64,000 bases of DNA. It comes from Dehalococcoidia bacterium (GTDB lineage Bacteria; Chloroflexota; Dehalococcoidia; SHYB01). Each line of letters begins with the position of its first letter. Position 1 is the first letter of the stretch. The notes under the pieces were generated by a model, which saw only the letters and a list, made by a program, of their open reading frames with translations, did not search any database and had not been told where the DNA came from. Location: the NCBI GenBank assembly GCA_965248515.1, contig CBDFJU010000003.1, positions 975,254-1,039,253 on the forward strand. The letters run 5' to 3'. Shown piece by piece: positions 1 through 17,861 of this stretch. A program made the translations under genes and the position numbers.

Positions 1-317
1 AAGCCCCGCTCCCAGGCGTTCTCCACCCGCCCGGCAAAGGGGTCACCGGGTAGGAACTCGAACTCGACGTCGATGCCCTCGGCGCGCCGGTCAAGGCCCA
101 ATGTGCGGCCAATGGGAAGCCCGGCGGAGGGCGTGCGCCCCACATAGTCGTGGACCCACATCACCACCGGGTTCTTTAGATAGTTCTCGACCCGCATCCC
201 CATGGGCTCCACCACGTCGCCGTCGCGGGCCCGTTCGCCAGTCATGATGCGGACGCGATGCCGGCCTCCCGTCTTCCCTCGCGCCTCGATAGGAAACCAT
301 CCTCGATTGGCTGTCAT
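1..317 (-). CDS. Phage prohead serine protease (HK97/S78 family). 3' end lies beyond the window start.
   Basis: Own minus-strand translation from the ATG at 317-315: MTANRGWFPIEARGKTGGRHRVRIMTGERARDGDVVEPMGMRVENYLKNPVVMWVHDYVGRTPSAGLPIGRT... matches the prohead-protease N-terminal pattern (DGDVVEP, WxHD). The ATG overlaps the portal TGA (ATGA). Absent from the ORF track because it has no stop inside the window. Confidence 0.7.
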   Translation of the reverse strand, partial: MTANRGWFPIEARGKTGGRHRVRIMTGERARDGDVVEPMGMRVENYLKNPVVMWVHDYVGRTPSAGLPIGRTLGLDRRAEGIDVEFEFLPGDPFAGRVENAWERG

Positions 318-1610
318 ACGGCCACCTCTCCCCCTCCCCCTCGGCGCTCGAGGGGGGTTGCTTCGTCGTCTGGACTTTGCCGGGTGTCCCCGACGCGCGC
401 CGGGGCCCCGTGCCATTCGTCGCCCCAGCCCACGGGCCCGAGGCCCTCGCGCTCCCGAACCTCGTTGATGGTGAGGATGCCGGCCCCCACCAGCTGCTGA
501 TAGCGCCGGGCCCCTGGCGTCCTCGCGGAGGGCCGACACGTCACCGACGTCGAACCGGACCTGGAGGCCGTCGCCCAGGAGCGGGACCAGGCCCCGGCTC
601 AGCTCCGACTCGATAAGCTGCATCTCCGGGATGAGGGTCTCGTCCCAGAAGCTGGACTTGGCGAGCGTGAAGTTGGCGAAGCTGGAGAAGCGCAGGTCGC
701 CAATGAGGAGCGGCGAGACGCCGTAGGCGCCGCAGATCTCCTCCTTGGTGAACCGTTGCCCCTCGACGTACTCCATGTCGCGCTGAGAGACGGCCAGCGA
801 CTTCAGGTCGGCGCTCTTGTCGAGGATGGCGATGCTGTGCGCTCTGTTCGGGTCCTTGAACGCCACCTCCCAGCGCATGCGCAGTTCCTCGGCCTGAGCG
901 GTCGTCAGTTCTTGCTCGCTCTTGAGGTAGACCCGCCCGGGCGTGGCGTCGTTGCGAAAGAACCTTCGGTTAAACCGGATGGCGTCGGTGTTGGTGTCGA
1001 TGGACATGCGGAGTGCCGCTATCGGCGAGAGACCGGCGTACTCCTCGATGGGGTTGGGGTAGCGGAACCACAGCACGTCCTCAGGCCCGAAGGCCACGTC
1101 CACCCCATCTTTCGTGTAGAGATAACCCTTGATATAGGCGGAGGCGTCGGGTATCACCTTGAACCGGCTCGGCCTGAGCCACCAGAGCTCCCGGACGTTG
1201 CCCCGGCCATCGCGGAACAGGACGACGGGCGCTGACCCCCACAGGCTCAGGCTCGCCTCGACCATGTACCAGAACCGTTGCCGGCTCCAGAACGGGTTGA
1301 CCGAGTCTAGGAGTAGCTGCGCCGGGTGCGTGTCGGGAAGCGGCACGGTGGCGCCGCCTTCCGTCGAGCGGTAGAGGCGAAGCCGGACGCGCGAGAGGTT
1401 CCGCGCACGCAGATGAACGCAGGCGTAGACCGTCGGCGAGATCGCAAGATAGTCCCCATACGAAGAAGGCGACCAGTCGTCGCCCATGCCGAAACGCTGC
1501 TGGTAACTGTCGGAGAGGAGCGTCGCCACCGGGTTGGCCCGCGCCAGGCTTCGACGGCGAGGCGCTACCAGTCGGGACGCCGCTTTGCCCAGGGTCGTTA
1601 GAAAGCTCAA
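314..1610 (-). pseudogene. Phage portal protein (HK97 family) with an apparent +1 frameshift at a GGGG run near 495-505.
   Basis: An uninterrupted minus-strand frame from 1610 (TTG preceded by GAAGGAGA) down to ~500 translates to ...PDTHPAQLLLDSVNPFWSRQRFWYMVEASLSLWGSAPVVLFRDGRGNVRELWWLRPSRFKVIPD...YAGLSPIAALRMSIDTNTDAIRFNRRFFRNDATPGRVYLKSEQ...EICGAYGVSPLLIGDLRFSSFANFTLAKSSFWDETLIPEMQLIESELSRGL. The conserved portal C-terminus (RYQQLVGAGILTINEVREREGLGPVGWGDEW, stop at 314) is in the adjacent frame. Missed by the ORF track. Confidence 0.75.
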
Positions 1611-1625
1611 AATAGATCTCCTTCG

Positions 1626-1994
1626 CTAGAACACCCAAAGCCCGCGGCCCCGGTCGCGGCGAGTCTGGGCCTCGAGGGCCAGCGCCAGCGCGTCGGCCCG
1701 GTCCGGGCTCGGCGCCGTCTGGTCCCTGCCCCGTTTGTAGACGCGGATCGCCCGGTCGAGAACGACTTCGAAATCGGCTGTGGTCAACTGGTCCCTGACC
1801 TGGTCCAATCCTGGACGTTCAAGCGTTGCCCCCGATACACCGTCGTCCAGGTACTCGCCAACAACTTCGTAGCCTTTGTCCCAGGCGTAGCTCCGTAGCG
1901 CCTCCAACTGGCTCTGGATCGTTTGTTCCTGTTCCTGCCGGTCCGAGCTCACCCGCGCATAAATCGCCGTCCTCACCGTCGCTACTTGAACCAT
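1626..1994 (-). CDS. Serine recombinase (resolvase/invertase) N-terminal catalytic-domain fragment, truncated.
   Basis: AIYARVSSDRQ...SLEAQ...YEVVGEYLDDGVSG motif block. It ends after the DR..R region and has no E-helix or DNA-binding domain. Its TAG stop is in the same frame as, and immediately followed by, the portal ORF. Confidence 0.6.
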   Translation of the reverse strand: MVQVATVRTAIYARVSSDRQEQEQTIQSQLEALRSYAWDKGYEVVGEYLDDGVSGATLERPGLDQVRDQLTTADFEVVLDRAIRVYKRGRDQTAPSPDRADALALALEAQTRRDRGRGLWVF

Positions 1995-2009
1995 ACGAGC
2001 CTCCCTCCC

Positions 2010-2225
2010 CTAGCTGTCCTTGTTCTTCGTCCTCGGCCGACCCCGCTTCGGCACGTAGGTCTCCGCTAACTTCTCCACTGCCTTCCTGCGGATGAGCCAG
2101 CGGTTCGCGAACTTCTCACCCGGCAACTGGCCCCGACGGATAAGCCGCTGGATCGCGAGTGGGTGCATGCCGAGCGCCTGCGCGGCTTCTGGGCCACTCA
2201 TGTAGGACTTTTCAATGGTTTGCAT
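2010..2225 (-). CDS. Excisionase/AlpA-like HTH DNA-binding protein.
   Basis: MQTIEKSYMSGPEAAQALGMHPLAIQRLIRRGQLPGEKFANRWLIRRKAVEKL resembles a phage excisionase-family helix-turn-helix. Lies upstream of the recombinase fragment on the same strand. Confidence 0.5.
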   Translation of the reverse strand: MQTIEKSYMSGPEAAQALGMHPLAIQRLIRRGQLPGEKFANRWLIRRKAVEKLAETYVPKRGRPRTKNKDS

Positions 2226-2538
2226 CAGGCCTAAACTTATTACAAGTAATATGGCTTTTATGACGGCAATTATGCGCCCACAATGCGCAGATGTAAAGCC
2301 CGCGTGTGGGCATGAGCAAGTGCGCTCTCGTGGGCGGGAAGCAATTGCGCAGGCGGACGCGATTAACCGGCGTGCTCGCGCGAATTGCAAGGCGCGGGGG
2401 CGCGAGAATAAAAAGCGTTAATGCATGGGCCCCCATACTTTGCCAAGCCGCATTGAGGGCGTGGGCTACGCGAGTACGTGGGCGAGGGTGGGCATAAGGC
2501 GAATGCGAGAGAGAGGGCGCGAACAGAGGAGGTGCTAG

Positions 2539-2811
2539 ATGAGACAGACCTGTGAAGGGTGCGGCAGGGAGTTCAGGGGCGAGGGTGGCTTAACTTGGCA
2601 CCGGGATCGGGCACATAGCCAGGAGCGGGCAGAACCGAGCGCGGTGGAGCATACACACCACCCATGGACCGAGGCTTGCGTCATCGAGGGGTGTGAACAC
2701 GAGGCCGAGTCCTTCTATGTCGGTGAGCCGTCGATGGTCACCCAGTGCGATGGAGGGCATATCGCTGTCGAGCCGGTTCGACTGAGACGGAGTAGGACAG
2801 GAGAGCTGTGA
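2539..2811 (+). CDS. Small C2H2-type zinc-finger-like protein.
   Basis: CEGCGREFRGEGGLTWHRDRAH fits C-x2-C-x12-H-x4-H. A second Cys/His cluster follows (CVIEGCEHE...CDGGH). Its 3' third is duplicated downstream of the SDR gene. Confidence 0.45.
   Translation: MRQTCEGCGREFRGEGGLTWHRDRAHSQERAEPSAVEHTHHPWTEACVIEGCEHEAESFYVGEPSMVTQCDGGHIAVEPVRLRRSRTGEL
2691..2795 (+). repeat. Imperfect direct repeat, copy 1 (~100 bp), covering the zinc-finger gene 3' end.
   Basis: tgtgaacacgaggccgag...gagccggttcgactgagacgg vs copy 2 at 3642-3746, ~75% identity. Encodes CEHEAESFYVGEPSMVTQCDGGHIAVEPVRLR vs CEHEVDAIYVDEPSVVMRCQVGHVAVEPVRLR. Confidence 0.55.
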
Positions 2812-2863
2812 TACCGTAGCCCGCACAGGGACGAGCTCGAGGCCGTAACCGGGAGGACTGCAC

Positions 2864-3640
2864 GTGAGACTCAAAGACAGGGTCGCGGTTATCACCGGAG
2901 GAGGCTCCGGGCTGGGCCGGGCGACAGCCCTCGCCTTCACCCGCGAAGGGGCCCGCTGCGTGCTCGTTGGGCAGAACGAGGAGAGATTGGCCGAGAGTGT
3001 GCGGTTGATCGAGGAGGCGGGCGGGCAGGGCCTTGCGGCGCCCTGCAACATCGCCGAACCGGAGCGCGTTCAGGCCATGATCGAACTCACCGTCGCTACC
3101 TTTGGGCGGCTCGACATCCTGGTGAACAATGCCGCCATGAACCGGCCCGACGATATGCCATCCGAGCGCGTCGCAGAGATGACCGAAGAGTGGTGGTCGG
3201 CGACCCTCGGCGTCAATCTCAGCGGCTGCTTTTATTGCTCCAAGTACGCCCTGCAACAGATGGCCACCACCCAGAGCGGCGTCATCATCAATGTCGTCTC
3301 GACGGTGGGGCTGATCGCGAACCCGGGCGTAGCGGCATACGTGGCCTCCAAGCACGGCGTCGTCGGCCTGACGAAGGCTATGGCCGTCGACTACGGCCCC
3401 CACGGCATTCGGGTCAATGCCATCTGCCCCGGTGCTTTCGAGTCGGAGCGGATGGAGCGCTACATGAACTTGTACGGCGATGCTAATTGGCGCCAGACAT
3501 TCGGACAGGCAAGACCGCTGCGGCGCATTGGTAGCCCCGCTGAGGTGGCCAACGTGGCCATCTTCCTCGCATCGGACGAGGCGTCGTACGTTACCGGGGC
3601 CATCATCCCCGTGGACGGCGGCAGCATGGCAGGCGGTTAG
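2864..3640 (+). CDS. SDR-family NAD(P)-dependent oxidoreductase.
   Basis: TGGGSGLG Rossmann motif, NNAA, YxxxK (YVASKHG). GTG start with a GGGAGGA RBS. Confidence 0.85.
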   Translation: MRLKDRVAVITGGGSGLGRATALAFTREGARCVLVGQNEERLAESVRLIEEAGGQGLAAPCNIAEPERVQAMIELTVATFGRLDILVNNAAMNRPDDMPSERVAEMTEEWWSATLGVNLSGCFYCSKYALQQMATTQSGVIINVVSTVGLIANPGVAAYVASKHGVVGLTKAMAVDYGPHGIRVNAICPGAFESERMERYMNLYGDANWRQTFGQARPLRRIGSPAEVANVAIFLASDEASYVTGAIIPVDGGSMAGG

Positions 3641-3641
3641 G

Positions 3642-3746
3642 CTGTGAACACGAGGTCGACGCCATATACGTTGATGAGCCGTCGGTGGTCATGCGGTGCC
3701 AGGTAGGGCATGTGGCTGTTGAGCCAGTGCGACTACGTGGACACCG
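3642..3746 (+). repeat. Imperfect direct repeat, copy 2, immediately after the SDR stop.
   Basis: See copy 1. The two copies flank the SDR gene. Confidence 0.55.
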
Positions 3747-3799
3747 TCTTGACCAGGACCCCTTTGCTGCATTGGACCACAATTCATTCGGAGGGAGTT

Positions 3800-4132
3800 A
3801 TGGCAGTAATCAAGATAGCGCACCATCCCGATCTAATGCCAGAGCGCGCAATGCAGGTCTTCGACGGACACTTCAGTAGGAAGTACGAGGTGTACAAAAC
3901 AGCGTTCCCGGGAAGAGACTTTGTTGTGAAGAAAAGCGGCTGGACGGGGGTGGGAGTAAAGCTGGAACAGGACAAAGATGGCACCTCCTTTGTCTTTTCA
4001 CCCCTTATGCCAAATGTCATATTCAACATGCTTTTCGGCAACCTGATTGCAATCTTGTTGCTGCGCTCAAGTTGGAAAGCGCTGGAAAAAGAGGTGCGTG
4101 TATTCATAGAGAACGCGGCCGACTTCAGGTAG
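3800..4132 (+). CDS. Hypothetical small protein with a C-terminal hydrophobic helix, in the low-GC island.
   Basis: ATG preceded by GGAGGGAG. MAVIKIAHHPDLMPERAMQVFDGHF...NVIFNMLFGNLIAILLL. GC drops to ~50% here. Confidence 0.45.
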   Translation: MAVIKIAHHPDLMPERAMQVFDGHFSRKYEVYKTAFPGRDFVVKKSGWTGVGVKLEQDKDGTSFVFSPLMPNVIFNMLFGNLIAILLLRSSWKALEKEVRVFIENAADFR

Positions 4133-4649
4133 AGTACTTGGCCAGCCGGTATACACCTCAACCTCAACGAGTACTGCATGTCGAATTGAATCCGCGGCAT
4201 GGTCTCGATGAATAACTAGTTCACCGGTCATGGTTCTGCGATGACGCATCGAACCGCAGCAACCTGGGCCGGATTGCCGCCCATGGACCACTCGAAGGGG
4301 GAATTCTGGACTCCACCCCGTCTCTCACTCCGAGAGGCCAGAGTGCTCCTCCTCGTTCCAAAAGGCACCTTTATGAACGGGTTGGGAAGTCGCCTCGAAC
4401 TACCACTTTGAGCGACGTCCGTCCTCTGTCCAAGTTGGCGATGCAGCGTACCCCATTTAGAACGGGTTGCATGCCGCCTCTGGTAGACACAGAAGGGGCC
4501 CCGAGCCTGAACGTGCGTGCTACCCCGTTTGAGACGGAGCAGGGCTTCGCGGGGGTGATGCTTGCCTCCCATAATCGCACCGGCGAGTGCCTGTTTGAGT
4601 TCGGTTCGGCAGGCGACGGCGAAGGGTCTACTCTAGAGCAGGTCCGACT

Positions 4650-5282
4650 TTATGGGCAGGCGGGGTCCTTACAGGGCTCTCTCCGGAATGCCACTGCCTT
4701 ACCGGAGAAATTGCTGGACTCAGCGGCTTCGAAGGTCGGGAAACTCTCCATAATGAGCTCTTCGTCGAACCTACTGTCCGTGTTTGGTTGCACTTGGTAT
4801 TTCAAATAGACGGTTGTGGGAGTACTCCGGATACCCAACCCTTCCTCAATACGTGCTACCCCAGCAGTGTCACTTCCAGAGAGAATGAAGAACTTACTCC
4901 TTCCGTTAGGTTGGCCTTCGTAAAGCGGCTTACCCACAACCTCTTTGTCGGCCGCTTCAACAAACAGACCTGACATTGTGGGGAACTCTTGCAGCGTCTT
5001 CCAGTATGTCTCCTGGTGTAGATCCTCCTTCTTCACTAGATTCACCGCCCACCAATAAGTGTCGCGATAATCCCAAGCGTTTCCGAGGTCATCCTTAAAC
5101 CAGACGCCCCATATTGTATCTTGGTGATTGATACTCCCCCGGCTGTCTTCTATGTCCGAATAGGGAGTGGTTCCTTCCTCTACCAAGGAGTCATAATAAG
5201 GCTGGTAGGCCTCCAAGATAGATTCCCGTAGCTCATCAGTGAAATAATCGAGGGGATTGGCGCTGAGAGAATACGTAATCAA
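4650..5282 (-). CDS. Hypothetical protein (low-GC island). Its 5' end abuts the IS3 insertion and the N-terminus is probably lost or displaced.
   Basis: Long open frame with no ATG at its 5' end (first codon TGG in my reading). The frame opens immediately after the IS3 right-end TGA. Confidence 0.4.
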   Translation of the reverse strand: MITYSLSANPLDYFTDELRESILEAYQPYYDSLVEEGTTPYSDIEDSRGSINHQDTIWGVWFKDDLGNAWDYRDTYWWAVNLVKKEDLHQETYWKTLQEFPTMSGLFVEAADKEVVGKPLYEGQPNGRSKFFILSGSDTAGVARIEEGLGIRSTPTTVYLKYQVQPNTDSRFDEELIMESFPTFEAAESSNFSGKAVAFRREPCKDPACP

Positions 5283-5301
5283 TCTCAGGTGGACCCCATC
5301 A

Positions 5302-6237
5302 TCAGGACAGCGGTGAGGCTAAAATAAGAGAGTCTACCGCTGGGGTGTCTCGTAAACCTTCATCCGATGGTAAGGCTTGTGGATGTTCCAGTAAACACCT
5401 TTGTGGGCTCACTGCATGGAACACCTGACCCGGTGACCGATAGCCCAGGGCTTGATGGGGCCGCTCTTGGTTGTAGAAGGCCAGATAAGCCCCAATCCCC
5501 TTTCTGGCCTCAGTCCCATTTTGGTATGCCTTCAGGTACACCTCCTCGTACTTGATGCTGCGCCACAGCCGTTCCACGAAGACGTTGTCCATGCACCGGC
5601 CCCTGCCGTCCATACTCACTTGAACGCCTTGCGCCAGCAGCATGCTGGTGAAGGCCTCGCTGGTGAACTGGCTGCCCTGGTCGGTGTTGAAGATCTGTGG
5701 CCGACCCTTGCTCAAGGCCTCTTCCAGAGCCGCAACACAGAAGTCTACCTCCAGGGTGTTGGGCAGCCGCCAGGCCAGCACGTAGCGGCTGTGCCAGTCC
5801 ATGATGGCCACCAAGTAGAGGAAACCCCGAGCCATGGGTATGTAGGTGATGTCGGTGGCCCACACCTGGTTGACCCGGTTGATCTCCAGCCCCCTGAGCA
5901 AGTACGGATAGACCTTATGCCCTGGGTTTGGCTTGCTGGTGTTGGGACGCCGGTAGATGGCCTCCAGGCCTATCAGCTGCATCAGCCGGCGGACCCGCTT
6001 GCGGTTGACCTGGTGTCCGTGATTTCTGAGCCAGGCAGTCATCCTTCTGGAGCCGTAGAAAGGTGTCTTCAGGTACTGTTGGTCTATGAGGGCCATCAAC
6101 TCCAAGTCCTCGGCGCCGGCCTCGGTTGGCAGGTAGTACAACGAGGAGCGGCTGATACCCAGCAAGGCGCACTGGCGCACCAGAGACAGCTTCGGTTCTT
6201 CTCGGGCAATCATGGCCCGGCGTTGGGACCGGCTCAC
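5302..6237 (-). CDS. IS3-family transposase OrfB (DDE integrase core).
   Basis: ...[33 protein letters not shown]...[11 protein letters not shown]...[14 protein letters not shown]... is a classic IS3/IS150 DDE domain. Confidence 0.85.
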
Positions 6238-6518
6238 AACCCGAAGCTCCGTGACAAAAAATCCCGTTCCACCTTGAGCTGCCCAATCTGTTGGTAGAGC
6301 TGGGCAGTGAGGACCTCTTGGTCCTTCTCCTGGCGTCCAGCACCATTTTCAAAGAGGTGCGGCGCCCCCTGAGTCAAGGCCTTCTTCCAGGCATGGATCT
6401 GGCTCGGGTGGACTTCAAACCGGCTGGCCAGCTCTGCAATGGTGTGCTCCCCCTGGAGCGCGGCCAAAGCCACTTTGGCCTTGAAGACTGGGCTGTGCTT
6501 CTTACGTGTTTGCTTCAT
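6234..6518 (-). CDS. IS3-family transposase OrfA (HTH). Expected to fuse to OrfB by a programmed -1 frameshift.
   Basis: [48 protein letters not shown]...LKVERDFL. Overlaps orfB by 4 nt. Confidence 0.8.
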
Positions 6519-6597
6519 GTCCTGCTCCTTCTTTCCGTCCTATTTTAGGAGCGGGACTCTCTCTTAGCCACCTGTCCGAATTTTGGGGTCCACCTCA

Positions 6598-7504
6598 ATC
6601 CTCTATCAATATTTCGATCACTCACGCCGAAGTCTAAGGAATAATAAGAAGACGGTGGCGGCCAATATATGTAGCCAATGTGAGTCCCCGCGTCGAATAC
6701 GGCGTAGCCCTTTGGAGAGTCTTGTACTGCCGCTCTGATTTCATCCCGTAGCGCCAGATGGGCATAGAAGACGTAGATATCAGGGGAAACGTCGAAACTA
6801 ACCCCCACGTCTATTATCACTTTCTCACCATTGACGAATCCCTCTCTGCCCTCTCCACTCGCATCAAGTCTTAATGCTCTTGTATCCAATATTCCTTTGG
6901 CCGGTAGGTACACTTCAACCACGTCGCCGGGACAAGCATAGATGTACCACTTCTTCGGGCCTTCGATCTTGTAGAGGTATTGGAAAAATGGCGTGAGCCT
7001 CTGCCCTCTGCAGGTATTGGCCCCGTCGAGAACGGCATTGAAATCAACTGGCATCTGGGTGAAGCCACTGAACTCTAGTGTGGAGACAGGATCTGACGGA
7101 GGCGTAGGCGTGGGAGTGGCTGAGGGTGTGGGCACTCGTACGGGCGTGGCTGACGGTGCGGCGGTAGGGAGAGGGATCGGCGTAGGTGCGGGCGACGAAG
7201 TCGCAATCGCAGTTGTTGGCGGCCTCGTAATGAACGTGGGCGAGGGACTTGGTTGCCGAGGCGAGTGCGTGGCCAGCGTCGACGGGGCGTTCGTGGCAGG
7301 AACCGCCTCAGCTTGCGCTGTAGCCGGGAGGGATCGCAACCGGGGTGACGTGTCAGTCACGCCCGGGGTTGGCTCAGCCGTTGCCTGAGGTACCGGCGAG
7401 CTCGCTGCCCTCGGCGCCACCGCACCCCCGTCGGACTCGCCGCTGCACGCGTAGACCGCCAGGCCTGCGAGGAAAACGACGATCAATCCCCACCCGCGTC
7501 GCAT
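6598..7504 (-). CDS. Secreted (possibly lipo-) protein with a long Pro/Thr/Ser/Ala linker and a C-terminal globular domain. Its 3' end is interrupted by the IS3 element.
   Basis: Signal peptide MRRGWGLIVVFLAGLAVYAC, ~150 aa PT-rich linker, then a domain. The listed ORF (6545-7504) runs 53 nt into the IS. Low GC. Confidence 0.5.
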
Positions 7505-7556
7505 AGACCCATATTGACGGATTCACCCGGCCCTTGACGAGGGGGGTATCCCCCAA

Positions 7557-7802
7557 GTGCCGGAGGCAGTGCTCGCGGGGACTTTTAGGCATTGGGGGCT
7601 GACCCGCTGGCTCGCCATCCGTCGGACGGGAGATTGGTGGCATTACGAGCCAGACATAATTCACGAAATCGCTCAATTTGGTAGAGATTTCACAGCCGGT
7701 CTCGATCCTGAGGTACAGGCAAGATTCGCCTACCGTAACGCAGTTGAGATGCTGGGCCTTTCGCTTGACCGAGACGAAAAGGGGAGCCCCGCCGGTGGTT
7801 GA
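7557..7802 (+). CDS. Possible amidohydrolase-2 C-terminal fragment or small ORF.
   Basis: The ending ...ARFAYRNAVEMLGL resembles amidohydrolase-2 C-termini (compare 48062-49192, ...NVRAVYRMEG). Short, no clear RBS. Confidence 0.25.
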   Translation: MPEAVLAGTFRHWGLTRWLAIRRTGDWWHYEPDIIHEIAQFGRDFTAGLDPEVQARFAYRNAVEMLGLSLDRDEKGSPAGG

Positions 7803-7935
7803 CGAGGCCCCCCTTTTGGTGCCGCACTGTTAGGCAACTACTTTTTCTTGCCAGCGTTATCCGCGGCCTTGCTCTTGTCGTTGTACGCCTTCTGCAGACC
7901 TGGTGCACTGTCAATGCCCTTGCCAGGGACGCCGG
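7775..7935 (-). repeat. ~160 bp direct repeat, copy 1: shared 3' coding tail plus 3'UTR of secreted-protein gene A.
   Basis: Near-identical to 9258-9425: ggagccccgccggtggttgacgaggcccccc.tttggtgccgcactgttaggcaactactttttcttgccagcgttatccgc.gccttgctcttgtcgttgtacgccttctgcagacc... Confidence 0.7.
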
Positions 7936-8855
7936 TATTTTTCAGGCCATCGGCCTTGCTGCAATTAATCCCGCCGGAGGGACCCGCCCCACCGCCGTAC
8001 CACACGACGCCATCCAAATCTGGTCCAACATTTGCGACGACGCCGTTTGAGCCGTCGGGGCTTGAACCAGAGGATCTCTCCGTTGTTCAAAGCTACATAG
8101 AAGAAGCCAGAGGAGTCGGCGGTCATACCTTCGGGGAAGACTGTTGCGAACAGGACTGACTTTGTACCAAATTCGTCGATCTTGGTTACCTGACTGGCAG
8201 GGAGGTGCTCACTTACGTAGGTGTTTCCATCTTGGTCTATCTGAATCCCTACCGGTTGGTCTAGCTCTGCCGCGAGCGTGCTCACACCGCCGGTGGAGTT
8301 CCGCACAACGACCTCTCCCGGAAGCCAGTCCGCCACATGCAGGTCCCCTGTGAGCGGATTGGTAGCAAGCCCAAGCGGAGTTTCGACCTCGGCTGAAGCG
8401 CTGCTCAATAGCTTGCTGAACGGGCCGGTACCCCCTCCAGACGGAATCTGCCAGACGTTACCCGTTCTAGTGAAGGTCGTCTCAGCCGCTAGCAGGTCAC
8501 CGCCGCAATCGAATAGTAGGGCAGTCTGACCCCCGGAATTGACGGGCAAGCCAGTGGCGTAAGCGCTCGCCGTTGCATCTGCTTGGTATCGAACGATTTT
8601 CCCCTCGGGCGCCGATGCGTAGTAAAGCTCTCCCCCGAAGAATGCCAATCCTGGGGAGAGGCCCCCCAACGTAGGGGCAAAAAGGGACACTCCCGTACTT
8701 AGCGGCGTACCGTCGACATCCCTTGACAGAGTGACTTCATATATGCCTCCGCTCTGTGCTGAGGCATAAAGGGTGTCCGCCGGAAAACCAGACTGAGCTG
8801 TGCCTGTACCTGCAGCTAGGACCAGCCAAAGAACAGTAACCGAAACAGCGGCCAC
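7840..8855 (-). pseudogene. Secreted NHL-repeat/beta-propeller-like protein (gene A), frameshifted at a CCCC run near 7990.
   Basis: Signal peptide MAAVSVTVLWLVLAAGTGTAQS and an NHL-like DQPVGIQIDQDGNTYVSE. The last ~50 codons (…DGSNGVVANVGPDLDGVVWYGGGAGPSGGINCSKADGLKNTGVPGKGIDSAPGLQKAYNDKSKAADNAGKKK) are in the +1 frame relative to the listed ORF. Confidence 0.6.
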
Positions 8856-9002
8856 TACACTAAGCCGTAGGGCGGTTCCCCGCCTTGCGATGGCCGTTTC
8901 TGACGTTGTGACGCCTCCATCATGTACCCTCCGAGCCTCAGCTGTAGCAAAATCTCCGACGCCTCATGTAGGCGCGAAGAATAACAGCAAAGCCATCGGA
9001 TC

Positions 9003-9255
9003 ACATCACCCGAACGGGTGAGTTTTGAGACCAGGTTCACCTCGGCATGGAAGACGCTATCTGGTGGGGCCCACCCACGCTCAACCTCCTCGCGCCGGTC
9101 CCCAGGTCCGCCGGTACTCGCCTTCGCCGCGCCGCCCTAGACCTTGGGCCCTCGCCGCCTCGGCGCGGGAGCGCTGGCAGCTGTTGAAGGACCGGCGGCG
9201 ATCACTAGACCTGGGGGCGATCTGGGCGGTAGAGGCTCTGCACCTTTGACAGACA
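9003..9255. repeat. Conserved non-coding element R1 (~250 bp). One of three related copies.
   Basis: Shares blocks with R2 and R3: atcacccgaaNgggtgag hairpin (GNRA-like loop), cctcgcgccg.tcccca, gccttcg.cgcgccgccct, gctggcag.tgttgaaggaccggcggcg..ca.tggacctg. Confidence 0.6.
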
Positions 9256-9257
9256 CA

Positions 9258-9425
9258 GGAGGAGCCCCGCCGGTGGTTGACGAGGCCCCCTTTTTGGTGC
9301 CGCACTGTTAGGCAACTACTTTTTCTTGCCAGCGTTATCCGCAGCCTTGCTCTTGTCGTTGTACGCCTTCTGCAGACCCGGCGCATTATCTAAGCCTTCG
9401 CCAGGAACGCCACTATCTTTCAGGA
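9258..9425 (-). repeat. ~160 bp direct repeat, copy 2: shared 3' coding tail plus 3'UTR of secreted-protein gene B.
   Basis: See copy 1 at 7775-7935. Confidence 0.7.
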
Positions 9426-10050
9426 TTTCGGCCTTGCCCGCTTCTGGGTCCACAAAAGTTCTGAAATCGAGGTCATAACCGCCATTGAACCAGCTAGGAG
9501 ACTCAAACCTTGTGTAGCCATCGCCAGCCCCGTAGGGGTTGCCAATACCAGCTCCTAATGCGTAGAACCCACCTGCAACGGGTTGCCGCAGCACGATTGC
9601 CAACACTTGTCCGGCGCTAACGCTGACCCCAAAGCCACTTACATCAATACTGAGGAACGGCGGCGGGCTGCCAGAGACGTTGACGGACACGTCCGCAGCC
9701 GGGACCGTGACGCTCGCCAACGTATCCGAATCGTCCTCGATGGGAGCCCCCCCGGTTGTGCGGCGAACATCGACCAGCAATGGTGCTCCGCCGATCCTCC
9801 CGGCCCTCACCTGGACCTCCGTCAGAAGTCCATCCAGTCCGACTGTGAACGTCTGGGCTGCATCTGCTCCTCCCCCAACGATAGGTCCAATAGTACCGCT
9901 ATCGAACTCCTGGTCGAGCTGAGACGCTGCGTGCACAACTCCGGTGCTCCAGCTCTGAGTGAGGAGAGCCCCTGCCAGCAGCAGTGCCAGCAGAATCCCC
10001 ATTGCCCTCTTCGACCTTGTGATCGCGGTTGTCACGATTCCCTCCACCAC
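9316..10050 (-). CDS. Secreted hypothetical protein (gene B). Shares its C-terminal tail with gene A.
   Basis: Sec-type signal (RSKRA n-region, ILLALLLAGALL h-region, VHA|AS). Gly/Ser/Val-rich. Ends ...PGLQKAYNDKSKAADNAGKKK. Confidence 0.6.
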   Translation of the reverse strand: MVEGIVTTAITRSKRAMGILLALLLAGALLTQSWSTGVVHAASQLDQEFDSGTIGPIVGGGADAAQTFTVGLDGLLTEVQVRAGRIGGAPLLVDVRRTTGGAPIEDDSDTLASVTVPAADVSVNVSGSPPPFLSIDVSGFGVSVSAGQVLAIVLRQPVAGGFYALGAGIGNPYGAGDGYTRFESPSWFNGGYDLDFRTFVDPEAGKAEILKDSGVPGEGLDNAPGLQKAYNDKSKAADNAGKKK

Positions 10051-10110
10051 TCCAGAATTGCTTCCATCCCCGTGTCAGCGAGTGCGAATCTGGGCAAGGT
10101 ATACCACGGA

Positions 10111-10370
10111 TGCCATGGCGACGCATCACCCGAAAGGGTGAGCTCGGACGATTGGCGCGGTAGCGCCGCCTGGCAAGGCCGCCATCGGCCTCGACGTCCT
10201 CGCGCCGCTCCCCAGTCCGCCACTAGCCGCCTTCGACGCGCCGCCCTCGCCCCTGGCCTCGTCGCCTGGGCGTGGGAGGGCTGGCAGTCGTTGGAGGACC
10301 CTGGCGACCATTGGACCTGGTGACTTCGCCCTCGTTGACGCCTAGGGCTATCCTGGCCACATGAGGTGAG
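10111..10370. repeat. Conserved non-coding element R2, between divergent genes B (-) and C (+).
   Basis: Aligns with R1 and R3. Ends ...ttgacgcctagggctatcctggccacatgaggtg about 20 nt before the gene C ATG. Confidence 0.6.
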
Positions 10371-10388
10371 ACTGAAGGCCCTGCACAC

Positions 10389-11477
10389 ATGGCTTGGTAC
10401 GACGAAGTAAATGCTACCTGGAAGCAGGTCGGCCTCGAAGTAGGAGCTGAGTTCCAGTTCCAGAGAAGCCATGGAGTTCCGAGTATCCGGAGGAAGGGGA
10501 AACGCGCACATATTTACGAGGGGAAGCTAGTCCGAAGAACAGAGGAGTGGACCCTCACGCTGGAATACAAAGCGGTGGCGGAAATCGAATACGACGACTT
10601 CAACGAGTTCCACACCACGACCACGATGAAAGCTGGTGCGAACACGGAGAACGCTCACACCTGGATCGGCAGTCGTGGCGAACGAGTGTTTCTGAAGGAA
10701 GTGTCGAAGGAAGAAGCCCCGAGGCTCTTGCGGGCATTGATGGGACCCAATTGGATGCTCCCGATCAAGGATCATGACGAGTTGGTGGCCTTGTTCAGAA
10801 GTTCTGAAGATACTCTGGCGGAGCTAGAAAACCGAGAAGAATCGTCAGGCCCCGAAACGGAACGGGCCGAACGTCGGAGAGAACTGCTCGATGACACTAG
10901 ACGGCTGTTGAGCGCTAGGGTCGTTAAACATGAAAAGGAAGCAGCTGATGAGGACCAGCGGCTGCGCGACTGGCATATGGTGCGCAAAGGGAAACTTCTC
11001 GATGAAGCCCGGAGGCTGTGCGTTAGGTTTGCCGGCTTCGGGATGGATGCCCGAGTCTTGGAGCGAGCTCCCGCTCCGGACGACAAAGATTCGGTGTATG
11101 GGTGGATCGAGATACCCGAAGGCCCGATACGGTGGGTATTGGTGAACGACGAGCCTCAAGAGTTCTTGACTTGCTGGATGGTGCCCGATCCGCGAATCAA
11201 ACTCGACTCTCCGTTCATTCTGGTCAATTCAAGCCCTGTGAAGTCGCGTCGCTTTTTGGGGCGCGTGACAGGAATCAGGTGGACCAGTTCCGATGCCGCG
11301 CTTGAGCCGACGGGGTTCAGCCAGCGCGTCGCAGCCACACTCGATGACGCTACGGCTGCTACTCAGCGTGAAGTGTCAAGTAAAGCCGTCGGTTCATGGG
11401 CTGAGACAGACCCGGCCCGTGGATGTTGGGCGATCCTAAATGACAAGGGCACGACGAAGTGGACAGGCGCTCTTTGA
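10389..11477 (+). CDS. Hypothetical protein (gene C). Its C-terminal region shares a GPIRWV...PDP domain with the 11558 gene.
   Basis: Long ORF with conserved R2 upstream. No recognisable motifs except similarity to the neighbouring paralog. Confidence 0.55.
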   Translation: MAWYDEVNATWKQVGLEVGAEFQFQRSHGVPSIRRKGKRAHIYEGKLVRRTEEWTLTLEYKAVAEIEYDDFNEFHTTTTMKAGANTENAHTWIGSRGERVFLKEVSKEEAPRLLRALMGPNWMLPIKDHDELVALFRSSEDTLAELENREESSGPETERAERRRELLDDTRRLLSARVVKHEKEAADEDQRLRDWHMVRKGKLLDEARRLCVRFAGFGMDARVLERAPAPDDKDSVYGWIEIPEGPIRWVLVNDEPQEFLTCWMVPDPRIKLDSPFILVNSSPVKSRRFLGRVTGIRWTSSDAALEPTGFSQRVAATLDDATAATQREVSSKAVGSWAETDPARGCWAILNDKGTTKWTGAL

Positions 11478-11557
11478 CAGTACTATCAGGCAATTGCCGA
11501 CGCCTTGCTGGCGATGCCCATGCCCGGTAAGGAGTAGTCGGCGGACCGAAGGGAGAT

Positions 11558-12220
11558 ATGGTCTTGTTTGGCAGGCTCAAAGAGAAGTTGCGAAATCACG
11601 CCAGGGATGAAGTATGTGCAGCTCTCGAAGCTGTAGGTGTCCAGGCGAGGATGGCTCCCCGCGGCCATTCCGAAGAAGAAATCACGCGGGGTCATGGAAA
11701 ATCCTTCGGTGTCATCGATGTAGCTGCAGGACCCATCCGCTGGGTCGGTGTCAAGAGTCAACGTGAGGACAGTGGTGATTACGACATCCCTGATCCCATG
11801 GTCTGGTACACGGAGTATGGTGTTCCAGATTCCAGGCTTGGTCCTAGCTTTCCAGAGGTACGCATTGCATCACAGAAAACTTTTAGCGTTTTTCCTTGGG
11901 GAAAGTGGAAACATTTCGTGCCGCACCCAGGAAAAGACGTTGACGAGATGTTCACAGGCTATGACTTTGGTCTAGGGGTAATTGGTCGTCTGTCCATCGA
12001 TGTGTCGCTGCGTGAACCCATCAGGGAATCCCGTCGGATAGAAATAGAGGCGTACCCGAAACATCACTGTTGGGTAATATCAAGTCGCTACGTGAATGAC
12101 GGTTTCGACATGCCTCGGATGTGGAAGGGTCGGACAGTTGCGCCCTCACCTCAACAATGGGATGCCTACCAGGCGATAGCCCGCCATCTGCTCGAAACTC
12201 CGGTTCCACTTAATACATAG
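11558..12220 (+). CDS. Hypothetical protein, paralogous domain to gene C.
   Basis: GVIDVAAGPIRWVGV...DIPDP vs gene C WIEIPEGPIRWVLV...MVPDP. Confidence 0.5.
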   Translation: MVLFGRLKEKLRNHARDEVCAALEAVGVQARMAPRGHSEEEITRGHGKSFGVIDVAAGPIRWVGVKSQREDSGDYDIPDPMVWYTEYGVPDSRLGPSFPEVRIASQKTFSVFPWGKWKHFVPHPGKDVDEMFTGYDFGLGVIGRLSIDVSLREPIRESRRIEIEAYPKHHCWVISSRYVNDGFDMPRMWKGRTVAPSPQQWDAYQAIARHLLETPVPLNT

Positions 12221-12329
12221 GGGGCTGTGCCTATCTTCGCTAACCCGGGTGGCGGAGCCCCACTAAAAAGCTGAAGGCCACATAAGTTCGTATCTTCCCC
12301 CTTGCCCGGGGAGACGTAGCAGTTCGGCG

Positions 12330-12532
12330 GTAATGATACGCGGCTCGCCCCACCCTCGAAGTCGCCGCTGACCCTTGCGACGTCCTTGCTCAGCTCCGCC
12401 GTGTTCGTGACCGAGCCCTTGGCCTCGCCGCCTAGGCGCGGGAGCACTTACAGTGGTTGAAGGACCGGCGGCGTTCATTGGACCTGACCGCTCCATACGT
12501 TGACGCCGTGGCTATCCTTGCCACATAAGGTG
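12330..12532. repeat. Conserved non-coding element R3, upstream of the 12561 gene.
   Basis: Core ...ggcgcgggagcacttacagtggttgaaggaccggcggcgttcattggacctga...ttgacgccgtggctatccttgccacataaggtg aligns with R1 and R2. Confidence 0.6.
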
Positions 12533-12560
12533 CTTTTCGCCGATGCAGGTTGCTCGTTAG

Positions 12561-13223
12561 ATGTCTAGCTCCCGCGACTCAAAAGCCGATCGTGCTTCAG
12601 CAGATAAGGCGTTGGAAGGGGCGCAGCTGCTTGCTGCGGGCGACTATCAGGGAGCTATCGCCGCTTGTAACGAGGCCATCAAGTTATACCCAGGAAGCGT
12701 AGGCGCGCACCGTACCCTGGTAGAAGCATACCGGCGTCTGGGCGAGAACATCCCAACACACGCGGCCGGTGATGCTTTCGAGGAAAGACCAGCAGATTTG
12801 TCGCCTTTTCTTTCATCCGACGTGGGGGGAGGCATCTTCGTTGGGCTATTGATCATAGTTATCGGGGTTGTTGCGGCGCTGGTGAGTGGTTCGGGATGGC
12901 TCTTGTTACTAGTTGGAGGGTTCGGGGCGTTTGTTCTGCTATGGAGTATCTGGGACGGAATCAGAATGAAACAAGACATATCCTCCGGTTCGGTTGAGCT
13001 GCATGGAACGCTTAGCCGCTGTGGCGTCCTTGCCGGCAGCCGCCGTGGACCTGGCCGAACCGACGGCCTCAGCGTCGCCTCTCGACGCGCCTCGCAGACA
13101 CCACCGGAGCGGCAATCTTCATCAGCCCTGGAGTACTTGCCAATGTCGGAATCGCCGATGACAATTGCGCCTCGGGAACAGGAGCATGGCCGCGACTGCG
13201 CTGAACCTTCTTCCGCCGGGTGA
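12561..13223 (+). CDS. TPR-like N-terminal domain protein with two transmembrane helices.
   Basis: AIAACNEAIKLYPGSVGAHRTLVEAYRRLGE (TPR-like), then GGIFVGLLIIVIGVVAALV and WLLLLVGGFGAFVLLWSIW hydrophobic helices. Confidence 0.5.
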   Translation: MSSSRDSKADRASADKALEGAQLLAAGDYQGAIAACNEAIKLYPGSVGAHRTLVEAYRRLGENIPTHAAGDAFEERPADLSPFLSSDVGGGIFVGLLIIVIGVVAALVSGSGWLLLLVGGFGAFVLLWSIWDGIRMKQDISSGSVELHGTLSRCGVLAGSRRGPGRTDGLSVASRRASQTPPERQSSSALEYLPMSESPMTIAPREQEHGRDCAEPSSAG

Positions 13224-13233
13224 GCATTTGGTG

Positions 13234-13788: not shown

Positions 13789-13874
13789 GAACCAACTAAA
13801 GACCATTCTCAACCCTGCGGCGGGTTTGGGCACGCAGGGCTTCTGTCGCCGGCATTCCACGCCTCCCAGACGTC

Positions 13875-14013: not shown

Positions 14014-14018
14014 GCGAG

Positions 14019-15545: not shown

Positions 15546-15560
15546 CGCTGGTCCTCCTCG

Positions 15561-15863: not shown

Positions 15864-15935
15864 CAGCCCCTGTTAGAATCCGACGCATCCGGGCTAAGGC
15901 GTTTGCACAACCCGGTGTCAAGGGAGCTTGGGAAA

Positions 15936-17844: not shown

Positions 17845-17861
17845 CGTCAAGGAGGAGCAAT

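What the first reader, a model, noticed from the sequence alone, without database searches (positions are those of the whole stretch)
1..2225. Prophage remnant hidden from the ORF track: prohead protease and portal directly abutting a truncated serine recombinase
Translating the minus strand by hand gives an HK97-type portal (1610 down to 314) and a prohead protease (317 to the window edge). Neither is in the supplied track: the protease has no stop in the window, and the portal frame runs on into it. The 122 aa resolvase fragment ends with TAG in the same frame as the portal and only 13 nt upstream of its TTG start. No terminase intervenes. A deletion appears to have fused the integration module to the head module.
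Basis: seen in the sequence. Interest (0 to 1): 0.55.

Follow-up and report, generated by a model that had tools for sequence, protein, structure and literature searches.

The report
Decayed phage-like cluster with recombinase–terminase fusion
This is a broken copy of a phage-like head gene cluster that related Dehalococcoidia genomes carry at the same chromosomal spot: a ~20 kb mobile island replaced its promoter end, and a deletion fused the island's recombinase stub in frame to the last 43 codons of the phage terminase gene. It is ordinary genome decay, but unusually well resolved.

Summary
The portal and the serine-recombinase N-terminus are real (Pfam 1.1e-73 and 1.8e-15). The protease is supported only through 73-80% identical full-length homologues that match Peptidase_S78.

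Three details in the finding are wrong:
- The portal is not one frame. It carries a net -5 nt indel at 506-521.
- The 122-aa "resolvase fragment" is a chimera. Residues 1-79 are a large serine recombinase; residues 80-122 are the C-terminus of the large terminase.
- The recombinase is not this element's own integrase.

In eleven related Chloroflexota/Dehalococcoidia loci, plus one portal-only contig, the gene order is: tautomerase, sometimes a 2-hydroxyacid dehydrogenase, a conserved promoter with a LexA-like box, then terS-terL-portal-protease-capsid-tail genes. No integrase is present.

The window keeps the tautomerase, the dehydrogenase and the promoter's left half (22227-22249). About 20.4 kb of low-GC3 island follows, carrying IS elements and an E1/E2/multiubiquitin operon. 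It ends in HTH-LSR', fused to 'terL.

Best reading: an LSR island integrated at the promoter palindrome, then a ~3 kb illegitimate deletion removed the rest of LSR, attR, terS and 90% of terL.

This is ordinary prophage-type decay, so interest is low to moderate. The conserved, integrase-less cluster under purifying selection is the more interesting lead.

The parts
1..317 (-). First 105 codons of a prohead (HK97/S78-type) protease gene. ATG at 317-315 overlaps the portal stop; the gene runs off the window edge.
   Evidence: 74% identical to L003 12230-13057 (275 aa) and 73-80% identical to 8 homologues. Six of those match Pfam Peptidase_S78; L003 also hits phrog_80 head maturation protease. 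The fragment itself has no Pfam hit.
314..1610 (-). HK97-type portal gene, TTG start at 1610. It is frameshifted and has lost its normal stop, giving a 33-aa C-terminal extension that ends at TGA 316-314.
   Evidence: Pfam Phage_portal 1.1e-73 and phrog_12 4e-81 on the repaired protein. tblastn gives two HSPs in different frames, 1610-504 and 511-410. 63-74% identical to relatives.
506..521 (-). Frameshift site in the portal: GACGCCA^GGGGCCCGG, a net -5 nt relative to five relatives.
   Evidence: DNA alignment A2. It is either a 5-bp slippage deletion (GCCA..GCCA) or a 6-bp in-frame loss plus a 1-nt gain in a G4/C3 run. The latter could be an assembly error.
1611..1625 (-). Native terL-portal intergenic spacer with ribosome-binding site (CGAAGGAGATCTATT).
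   Evidence: Sequence. Relatives have a comparably short terL-stop to portal-start spacing, e.g. 21 nt in L003.
1626..1757 (-). 3' remnant of the large terminase gene: the last 43 codons plus TAG, equivalent to L003 TerL residues 397-439 of 439.
   Evidence: tblastn of L003 TerL aa 382-439 against window 1802-1629. DNA alignment shows high identity starting exactly at GACCGGGCGATCCGC. P0013, a TerL C-terminal protein, hit the ORF at E 7e-14 in the 5.8-billion-protein search. L003 TerL is phrog_2 terminase large subunit, 5e-37.
1758..1994 (-). First 79 codons of a large serine recombinase gene, including the catalytic-Ser motif YARVSS. It is cut inside the catalytic domain.
   Evidence: Pfam Resolvase aa 10-79, profile positions 2-69 of 145; phrog_95 integrase. 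Homologues P0002-P0007 continue ...VLFHSPDRLARK... into a Recombinase domain, whereas the window switches to TerL sequence after L79.
1626..1994 (-). Chimeric 122-aa ORF, LSR(1-79)::TerL(397-439), an in-frame fusion. The junction is 1758|1757 (CTC|GAC).
   Evidence: The exact protein is in public databases as P0001, on a 1,063,982-bp contig.
2010..2225 (-). HTH_17 (MerR/excisionase-like) gene of 71 aa, immediately upstream of the LSR stub.
   Evidence: Pfam HTH_17 1.9e-9; phrog_66 excisionase/regulator.
2269..2297 (-). Sigma-70-like promoter candidate (TTTACA-17-CATAAT) upstream of the HTH gene. No terminator-like site lies between it and the window edge.
   Evidence: This is a consensus scan only.
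2226..22212 (.). Body of a ~20.4 kb low-GC3 island (1758-22212 in full). Contents: zf-C2H2 ORF, SDR, IS3, an IS481-like transposase, an HATPase+STAS/HTH pair, and a multiubiquitin/E2/E1 operon.
   Evidence: GC3 is 0.56-0.70 here against 0.80-0.89 in core genes. Pfam and PADLOC hits. It occupies the position of terS plus terL codons 1-396 in relatives.
22213..22249 (-). Remnant of the cluster's conserved promoter/palindrome. CAATGATACTTGACAGGTCTTGT (22249-22227) is intact. GAGCGCGGTTTCTC (22226-22213) is only 9/14 like the conserved right half. The -10 element and the LexA-like box are gone.
   Evidence: Alignments and blastn against L001, L003, L005 and L006. Motif table. GAAC-N4-GTTC is absent from the window.
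22311..23342 (+). D-2-hydroxyacid dehydrogenase, the conserved host flank. The same gene sits between the tautomerase and terS in L003, L012 and L015.
   Evidence: Pfam 2-Hacid_dh_C 2e-56. 46% identical to L003 6975-7997. Called genes in L012 and L015.
23788..23973 (+). 4-oxalocrotonate-tautomerase-family gene (61 aa), a conserved host flank. It lies upstream of the cluster promoter, directly or with a few genes between, in every related locus whose upstream flank could be read.
   Evidence: PF01361 Tautomerase on the called genes in L012 and L015.

Best explanation
The window edge holds a dead copy of a ~12.5 kb phage-like head-tail cluster. Its gene order is terS, terL, portal, S78 protease, HK97 capsid, adaptor, tail terminator, major tail and a few more genes. 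Related Chloroflexota/Dehalococcoidia genomes carry this cluster at one conserved chromosomal locus, beside a tautomerase gene and without any integrase.

Shown:
- The window keeps the host flank (tautomerase, dehydrogenase) and the left half of the cluster's conserved promoter palindrome.
- About 20.4 kb of compositionally foreign DNA follows. Its last genes are an HTH_17 gene and the first 79 codons of a large serine recombinase (LSR).
- These are joined in frame, with no microhomology beyond 1 nt, to the last 43 codons of terL.
- The native terL-portal spacer, the portal (net -5 nt indel) and the protease follow.

Inferred history:
1. An LSR-encoding island integrated site-specifically at the palindromic promoter upstream of terS. 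The hybrid-looking site at 22213-22249 would be attL.
2. One illegitimate deletion of about 3 kb ran from LSR codon 80, across attR, the rest of the promoter and terS, to terL codon 396.
3. That single event inactivated the recombinase (locking the island in place), removed the cluster's SOS-type promoter and abolished DNA packaging.
4. Later decay added the portal indel and IS insertions.

The 122-aa chimeric ORF is a by-product and is not expected to have recombinase or terminase activity. Any remaining transcription of portal, protease and capsid would have to come from the island's own promoter upstream of the HTH gene.
For: - Identity of parts.
- Chimera: LSR homologues continue ...VLFHSPDRLARK..., while the window continues DRAIRVYKRG..., which is identical in pattern to TerL C-termini. 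The DNA-level breakpoint is sharp at 1758|1757.
- Ancestral order and lack of an integrase in eleven related loci showing flanks.
- Conserved flank: the tautomerase is present in all eight loci aligned and in L012 and L015. The dehydrogenase is shared with L003, L012 and L015.
- Upstream junction inside the conserved promoter palindrome: the left half is perfectly kept, the next 14 nt are only 9/14 similar (about 0.8% by chance by my estimate), and all similarity is lost after that.
- Foreign composition and mobile or defence-type content of the intervening 20 kb.
- No TerL N-terminal or terS homology anywhere in the 64 kb.
- Precedent that LSR elements do hit this cluster: in L008 a 9.3 kb element with a full-length 493-aa LSR splits terL at ...NKLSE|MYWVL.... 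Both junctions carry AAGCTnTnGGAG, and the reconstructed attP has the inverted repeat TGTCAAG/CTTGACA.
- An intact 467-aa capsid protein (P0052) is recorded on a contig of the same length, 1,063,982 bp, as the chimera P0001. The head module therefore very probably continues left of the window.
Against: - attR is gone, so LSR-mediated integration at the promoter palindrome is inferred from a single hybrid-looking junction.
- The 9/14 similarity after the junction could instead be a drifted promoter half with a breakpoint at about 22213.
- The island may be composite. It contains IS elements and a host-like high-GC3 SDR gene bracketed by a 95-nt repeat, so more than one event may have built it.
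- The sequence left of the window could not be fetched.
- The portal indel lies next to G4/C3 runs. On a megabase contig that is probably a long-read assembly, it could partly be a sequencing error.
- The window portal shows no excess of private substitutions: 10, against 9-16 in L001, L003 and L009. Its decay is therefore recent or incomplete.
Confidence: 0.65

Rival explanations
1. This is one ordinary prophage whose own integrase (attL-xis-int) was fused to its head module by an internal deletion that removed the early genes and the terminase.
For: The HTH, LSR stub, terL tail, portal and protease are all on one strand and contiguous. LSR integrases with an upstream HTH/excisionase gene are common in temperate phages (own knowledge).
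Against: No relative with readable flanks has an integrase at either end of the cluster. The cluster's conserved host flank and promoter half lie 20 kb away at 22.2-24 kb, so the LSR sits inside an insertion rather than at a prophage end. DNA beside the HTH gene is island DNA, not a prophage early region.
Confidence: 0.08
2. An LSR element inserted directly into terL, as in L008. At least two later deletions then removed (a) the LSR 3' part plus a few dozen terL codons and (b) terS plus the terL 5' part together with the island's other end.
For: L008 proves that LSR elements can target terL of this family, only about 37 codons upstream of the window's breakpoint.
Against: It needs two or more deletions instead of one. 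The L008 LSR is in the opposite orientation and shares no detectable similarity with the window LSR stub in tblastn. The upstream junction falls exactly in a conserved palindrome with a partly similar right half, which a random deletion end-point does not predict.
Confidence: 0.17
3. The cluster is still used. It would be a domesticated, GTA-like particle gene set whose terminase is supplied from elsewhere in the genome, with the portal frameshift being an assembly error.
For: Cluster genes show dN/dS of 0.10-0.27 between relatives, including L004 and L006, which also lack terS/terL. The source contig keeps an intact capsid gene. The window portal has no excess private substitutions. The indel lies next to homopolymer runs.
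Against: The native promoter and LexA-like box are lost. No terL homologue is present in the 64 kb. The portal has also lost its normal stop. About half of the family copies are visibly decayed.
Confidence: 0.07
4. Assembly artefact: the LSR::terL junction or the promoter junction is a chimeric join in a metagenome assembly.
For: The source appears to be a megabase contig of an uncultured organism. Relatives come from MAGs.
Against: Two independent junctions tell one coherent story. The fusion is in frame. Flank synteny with L003 and L012 is preserved on the far side.
Confidence: 0.03

Closest known systems
HK97-type head/packaging module (terS-terL-portal-S78 prohead protease-HK97-fold capsid) of tailed phages
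   Same: Same gene order and families: Phage_portal (PF04860), Peptidase_S78 in homologues, phrog_10/PF05065-type capsid, phrog_2 TerL.
   Different: The closest deposited phage portals are only about 30% identical, and there is no close relative in IMG/VR. Here terS and 90% of terL are missing and the portal is frameshifted.
Cryptic or defective prophages eroded by deletion and mobile-element insertion (e.g. E. coli Rac, DLP12, e14; from own knowledge)
   Same: A partial structural module left in the chromosome, IS elements nearby, genes truncated or fused by illegitimate deletion.
   Different: The family sits at one conserved locus without an integrase in many genomes and is under purifying selection. 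This looks more like a vertically inherited element than a recently integrated prophage.
Gene transfer agents such as RcGTA (from own knowledge)
   Same: Small (~12.5 kb) head-tail cluster with no integrase, replication or recognisable lysogeny genes. It has a conserved chromosomal position, divergence parallel to the flanking host gene, and host-type regulation suggested by a LexA-like box.
   Different: No sequence relationship to RcGTA was tested, and no evidence of particle production exists. About half the copies, including this one, are broken. No paper reporting a GTA in Chloroflexi was identified among the 36 full-text hits (top 10 listed, by title and abstract start).
Large-serine-recombinase elements that interrupt genes (B. 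subtilis skin/SpoIVCA, SPbeta SprA, phiC31-type integrases; from own knowledge)
   Same: L008 shows a textbook LSR insertion splitting terL, with an inverted-repeat attP. The window's island ends in an LSR gene, and its other end lies in a palindrome.
   Different: In the window the LSR is truncated to 79 aa and attR is deleted, so the element can no longer excise. No regulated-excision role is implied.

Membership tests
Phage portal protein (Pfam PF04860, HK97-type) | Significant full-length match to the family HMM | tested here: met
   E 1.1e-73, 248.7 bits, profile 1-321 of 321, on the frame-repaired protein. phrog_12 at 4.3e-81.
Phage portal protein (Pfam PF04860, HK97-type) | Single uninterrupted reading frame of normal length (about 400-410 aa in relatives) | tested here: not met
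   Two frames, a net -5 nt at 506-521 and loss of the normal stop. 1297 nt is not divisible by 3.
Caudovirus prohead serine protease (Peptidase_S78, PF04586) | HMM match of the window's own translation | tested here: not met
   No Pfam hit for the 105-aa fragment at E<=1 or E<=0.01. The only hit is phrog_11321, function unknown, at 8e-5.
Caudovirus prohead serine protease (Peptidase_S78, PF04586) | Close full-length homologues belong to the family | tested here: met
   6 of 9 aligned members match S78, best E 1.2e-5. L003 scores 22.7 bits against a cut-off of 21, and also hits phrog_80. The window fragment is 73-80% identical to them.
Caudovirus prohead serine protease (Peptidase_S78, PF04586) | Catalytic His and Ser both present | not testable with these tools
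   The invariant NPVVMWxHDY motif is present. The ...ASIGW... Ser region lies left of the window edge.
Serine recombinase (Resolvase PF00239) / large serine recombinase | N-terminal catalytic-domain match with the Ser nucleophile motif | tested here: met
   Pfam Resolvase E 1.8e-15 over aa 10-79, with YARVSS present.
Serine recombinase (Resolvase PF00239) / large serine recombinase | Complete catalytic domain plus Recombinase and zinc-ribbon domains | tested here: not met
   Only profile positions 2-69 of 145 are present. The sequence switches to TerL after L79. Compare the intact 493-aa LSR in L008.
Terminase large subunit | ATPase and nuclease domains | tested here: not met
   Only the last 43 residues remain. 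No other TerL homology is found in the 64 kb.
Integrated temperate prophage | Own integrase, att sites, and lysogeny, replication and lysis modules | tested here: not met
   Relatives have host genes directly on both sides of the ~12.5 kb structural cluster and no integrase. The LSR in the window belongs to the inserted island.
GTA-like / domesticated phage-particle cluster | Conserved chromosomal locus and co-divergence with the host | tested here: met
   The tautomerase flank is present in all loci with a readable upstream flank. Tautomerase and portal identities run in parallel.
GTA-like / domesticated phage-particle cluster | Purifying selection on structural genes | tested here: met
   NG86 dN/dS of 0.10-0.27 for portal, capsid, terL, adaptor and tail genes in several pairs. 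This is measured between relatives, not for the window copy alone.
GTA-like / domesticated phage-particle cluster | Production of particles that package host DNA | not testable with these tools
   Needs culture or induction experiments.
GTA-like / domesticated phage-particle cluster | Complete gene set in this genome | tested here: not met
   terS, 90% of terL, the -10 element and the LexA-like box are absent. The portal is frameshifted.
LSR-mediated site-specific insertion | attL/attR pair that reconstructs an inverted-repeat attP and an uninterrupted attB | tested here: inconclusive
   Met for L008. In the window only one junction survives, lying in a palindrome with a 9/14-similar right half. 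attR is deleted.

The most novel reading that the evidence does not exclude
The window's remnant may belong to a previously undescribed, vertically inherited particle gene cluster of a Dehalococcoidia lineage. The cluster is integrase-less and about 12.5 kb long (terS-terL-portal-protease-capsid-adaptor-tail). It is driven by a conserved sigma-70-type promoter with a GAAC-N4-GTTC LexA-type box. This would be a candidate SOS-inducible gene-transfer-agent-like element in Chloroflexota. Large-serine-recombinase islands repeatedly use it as a landing site (terL in L008, the promoter palindrome here).
Probability: 0.3. Interest if true: 0.6.

Novelty: new member of a known kind. Interest (0 to 1): 0.3.

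Why it matters
As a finding it is a worked example of how a phage-derived cluster dies. Both breakpoints are resolved almost to the nucleotide. One deletion disables a mobile island's recombinase and the cluster's terminase together, leaving an in-frame chimeric ORF that annotation pipelines label simply "resolvase". It shows why short recombinase calls next to phage genes should be checked for fusion partners.

The wider value lies in the comparative by-product. A conserved, syntenic, LexA-box-bearing head-tail cluster under purifying selection in uncultured Dehalococcoidia would, if functional in intact copies, be a GTA-like system in a phylum for which my one full-text search surfaced no such report.

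Tried and rejected
- Exact-protein look-ups of the source contig all returned "not on record", so the sequence left of the window could not be read. Queries were the 122-aa ORF, the SDR, the HTH protein, P0001 and the capsid P0052.
- IMG/VR scans with the portal, the HTH protein and the LSR stub gave nothing, nothing, and one 46% LSR relative of no use for att sites.
- The metagenome scan with the portal gave only three short or remote loci.
- I considered that attP might lie inside terL, so that integration would split the gene and excision rebuild it. Rejected: in L008 the order is TerL-N ... insert ... TerL-C, which is an insertion topology. In the window no TerL-N exists within 62 kb.
- I suspected the ~145-bp element conserved upstream of every cluster was an RNA or an att site. 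Rfam found nothing there, and the alignment showed it to be a 61-aa tautomerase gene on the other strand.
- I looked for microhomology at the LSR|terL junction. There is none beyond 1 nt. A shared DR codon pair exists in both parent genes, but it was not the crossover point, because the FHSP residues are missing.
- A profile search of PDB with the protease alignment gave no hits.
- The protease fragment found only one database homologue and not the source's own protein. This is consistent with the locus being annotated as a pseudogene, but does not prove it.
- No tRNA is present in the window.
- Literature searches found no description of a Chloroflexi GTA, and nothing relevant on serine-recombinase elements inserted into phage terminase genes.
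Full report
**1. What is in the sequence**

Six-frame translation of 1-2400 and the ORF list show four features on the minus strand:
- an HTH gene (2225-2010);
- a 122-aa ORF (1994-1626);
- a long portal-like reading frame starting at TTG 1610;
- an ORF starting at ATG 317 that leaves the window.

HMM results:
- The frame-repaired portal matches Pfam Phage_portal over the whole profile (E 1.1e-73) and phrog_12 (4e-81).
- The 122-aa ORF matches Resolvase over aa 10-79 only (E 1.8e-15).
- The small upstream protein matches HTH_17 (E 1.9e-9).
- The 105-aa protease fragment has no Pfam hit of its own.

The portal is not a single ORF. 1610..314 is 1297 nt. tblastn with an intact relative gives two HSPs in different frames (1610-504 and 511-410). 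A DNA alignment with five relatives shows a net loss of 5 nt at GACGCCA^GGGGCCCGG (window 521-506) and loss of the normal stop.

That frameshift puts the portal's N-terminal frame in register with the protease.

The indel can be read two ways. It may be a 5-bp slippage deletion between GCCA repeats. It may instead be a 6-bp in-frame loss plus one extra base in a G4/C3 run, and that extra base could be an assembly error.

The spacer between the 122-aa ORF's TAG and the portal TTG is 15 nt and contains AAGGAG. It is not 13 nt.

**2. The "truncated resolvase" is a recombinase::terminase chimera**

A scan of GTDB genomes with the portal found seven related loci in Chloroflexota/Dehalococcoidia MAGs, 61-73% identical.

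In L003 the gene before the portal is a 439-aa large terminase (phrog_2, 5e-37). It ends ...ESDRAIRVYKRGKEQAASSPDRADALALAVEAQRRGQQGPGMWLF. The window ORF ends ...FEVVLDRAIRVYKRGRDQTAPSPDRADALALALEAQTRRDRGRGLWVF.

The database search with the 122-aa ORF returned two kinds of hits:
- large serine recombinases for its N-terminal 60%; these continue ...VLFHSPDRLARK... into a Recombinase domain;
- a TerL C-terminal protein (P0013, E 7e-14) for its C-terminal 43%.

At the DNA level, identity to six terL 3' ends begins abruptly at GACCGGGCGATCCGC. The junction is CTC|GAC at window 1758|1757:
- LSR residues 1-79 are fused in frame to TerL residues 397-439 (L003 numbering).
- There is no microhomology beyond one base.

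The terL stop, spacer and portal start downstream are the native arrangement.

**3. The protease**

The fragment is 73-80% identical to eight homologues and shares the invariant NPVVMWxHDY motif. Six of the nine aligned members match Peptidase_S78, best E 1.2e-5. L003 scores 22.7 bits against a cut-off of 21 and also hits phrog_80, head maturation protease.

The protease call is therefore right, but it rests on homologues and not on a direct HMM hit.

**4. What the cluster is in relatives**

tblastn synteny maps and called-gene tables for three further loci give this order:

terS, terL, portal, protease, 467-aa capsid (phrog_10; PF05065 in relatives), head-tail adaptor, tail terminator, major tail protein, then proteins of ~480, 383 and 101 aa.

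The cluster is about 12.5 kb. Host genes lie directly on both sides, and no integrase is present.

Upstream of the promoter, every locus with a readable flank has a 61-aa tautomerase-family gene on the opposite strand, directly adjacent or a few genes away (PF01361). L003, L012 and L015 also have a D-2-hydroxyacid dehydrogenase between it and terS.

Between that flank and terS lies a conserved motif: ATGATACTTGACAGGnCTTGTCAAGGGGGTTTATCGTTA...GCGAACGTACGTTCT.
- It reads as a -35 TTGACA, a 17-nt spacer and a -10 TATCGT.
- It contains the palindrome CTTGACA-N5-TGTCAAG.
- It is followed by a GAAC-N4-GTTC box.
- In L001, L002 and L004-L007 that box occurs once per 14-21 kb locus, exactly at this position. 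L016 has it there plus one other copy.
- From my own knowledge it matches the Gram-positive-type LexA box reported for Dehalococcoides. I could not retrieve a paper to cite.

Cluster genes show dN/dS of 0.10-0.27. Tautomerase and portal identities vary in parallel across loci.

Many copies are nevertheless damaged:
- L003 has an IS3 element in the capsid gene.
- L004 and L006 lack terS and terL.
- L006 and L007 end after the portal.
- L012 lacks the tail genes.
- L008 has a 9.3-kb element inside terL.

**5. Where the window's copy was broken**

The window contains the tautomerase (23788-23973) and the dehydrogenase (22311-23342; 46% identical to L003's).

Reading towards the phage genes, the conserved promoter is present up to CAATGATACTTGACAGGTCTTGT (22249-22227). 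The next 14 nt (22226-22213) match the conserved right half at only 9 of 14 positions. After that all similarity ends. The -10 element and the LexA-type box are absent.

From there to 1758 lie about 20.4 kb with GC3 of 0.56-0.70, against 0.80-0.89 in the core genes further right. Contents:
- an IS3 element;
- an IS481-like transposase that appears to interrupt a multiubiquitin/Prok-E2/ThiF-E1 operon;
- an HATPase plus STAS/HTH gene pair;
- many ORFs without family matches.

This is a mobile island. Its last two genes are the HTH_17 gene and the LSR stub. No terS or terL 5' homology exists anywhere in the 64 kb.

**6. Most likely history**

The simplest path has two steps:
1. LSR-mediated integration of the island at the promoter palindrome. 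The surviving junction then looks like an attL: an intact B half plus a P' half that is partly similar.
2. One illegitimate deletion of about 3 kb, from LSR codon 80 through attR, the promoter remainder and terS, to terL codon 396.

The integration step is inferred, because attR is gone.

It is made plausible by L008. There a full-length 493-aa LSR lies 65 bp from a terL 3' fragment, and the terL 5' part lies 9.3 kb away. Both junctions carry AAGCTnTnGGAG. Joining the element's ends gives TGTCAAGCTGTTGGAGGTGAACTTGACA, an inverted-repeat attP. That element's LSR is in the opposite orientation and shows no detectable similarity to the window stub in tblastn, so it is an independent event.

The deletion step is shown by the sequence.

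Consequences (inferred):
- The island can no longer excise.
- The cluster has lost its packaging enzyme and its own regulated promoter.
- The 122-aa fusion protein lacks over half of the ~145-position catalytic domain and every DNA-binding domain, so it should be inert.
- A promoter-like site (2297-2269) and the absence of terminator-like sites leave open read-through transcription into the portal and protease genes.

**7. State of the rest**

A 467-aa capsid protein 83% identical to L001's is recorded on a contig of exactly the same length as the one encoding the chimera, 1,063,982 bp. The head module therefore very probably continues, intact at least for the capsid, left of the window. I could not fetch that DNA.

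The window portal has no excess of private substitutions at otherwise invariant sites: 10, against 9-16 in L001, L003 and L009. The damage is evolutionarily recent, or part of the cluster is still constrained.

**8. Comparison with known systems and verdict**

The parts are standard HK97-type head genes. The nearest deposited phage portals are only about 30% identical, and nothing close is in IMG/VR.

The phenomenon is common: erosion of a phage-derived cluster by island insertion and deletion, leaving a fused ORF. I rate it as a new member of a known kind with low to moderate interest.

It is a remnant and a deletion did fuse a recombinase gene to the head/packaging genes. However, the recombinase belongs to an inserted island, a terminase remnant is part of the fusion, and the portal is frameshifted.

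The more novel reading, not excluded by the evidence, is that the family is a vertically inherited, SOS-controlled, GTA-like cluster of a Dehalococcoidia lineage. I found no paper describing such a thing.

Noticed in passing
L001-L007, L012, L015, L016 (e.g. L005 6299-6360; L001 4833-4890); window 22213-22249 keeps only the left half: A conserved non-coding motif lies upstream of terS: ATGATACTTGACAGGnCTTGTCAAGGGGGTTTATCGTTA followed by GAAC-N4-GTTC. It reads as a sigma-70-like promoter with a palindrome and a LexA-type box. In L001, L002 and L004-L007 the box occurs once per locus, exactly there; L016 has it there plus one other copy.
   Followed up: partly
L008 654-690 and 9965-10000 (element 666-9991): A 9.3-kb element splits terL at ...NKLSE|MYWVL.... 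It carries a full-length 493-aa large serine recombinase, an XRE-type regulator, a primase-like gene, a HisRS paralogue, a methyltransferase and an ABC2 protein. Both junctions carry AAGCTnTnGGAG, and the reconstructed attP has the inverted repeat TGTCAAG/CTTGACA.
   Followed up: partly
L004 9560-9950; L006 9590-10050: Two relatives keep the cluster promoter and LexA-type box but lack terS and terL entirely, so the portal follows about 300 bp after the promoter. Their portals still differ with dN/dS of about 0.1.
   Followed up: partly
window 18495-22096: An operon of multiubiquitin (PF14452), Prok-E2_E (PF14462), a possible JAB-like ORF (19148-19495, truncated) and a ThiF-type E1 (PADLOC E1-E2 models). 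It appears to be interrupted by a 434-aa IS481-like transposase gene at 19517-20821.
   Followed up: partly
window 16987-18410: A gene pair encoding an HATPase_c-like protein (weak PADLOC DrmA N-terminal match) and a STAS-like DUF4325 plus winged-HTH protein. It is probably a defence or regulatory module of the island.
   Followed up: no
window 5302-6518: An IS3-family element (orfA 6518-6234, orfB 6237-5302; rve, HTH_21) inside the island. An unrelated IS3 copy disrupts the capsid gene in L003 (13640-15030).
   Followed up: no
window 2689-2783 and 3640-3734: A 95-nt direct repeat (78% identical) brackets the high-GC3 SDR gene (2864-3640). The first copy is the 3' part of a small zf-C2H2-like ORF (2539-2811).
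   Followed up: no
window 37278-37488: A T-box leader (Rfam RF00230, 118.7 bits) lies upstream of the acetolactate-synthase-like gene at 37556, at the head of the ilv/leu genes.
   Followed up: no
window 14019-15545: A 508-aa P-loop protein (GSGKG motif) with no Pfam or PADLOC match, in the centre of the island. It may be a primase/helicase-type replication protein of the element.
   Followed up: no
L007 9992-11187; L008 10298-11502; L015 7006-8228: Portal genes in three other long-contig assemblies are also split into two or three frames. Either frameshifts are frequent in this family or there are systematic homopolymer errors in long-read MAGs. This bears on how far the window's portal indel can be trusted.
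   Followed up: no
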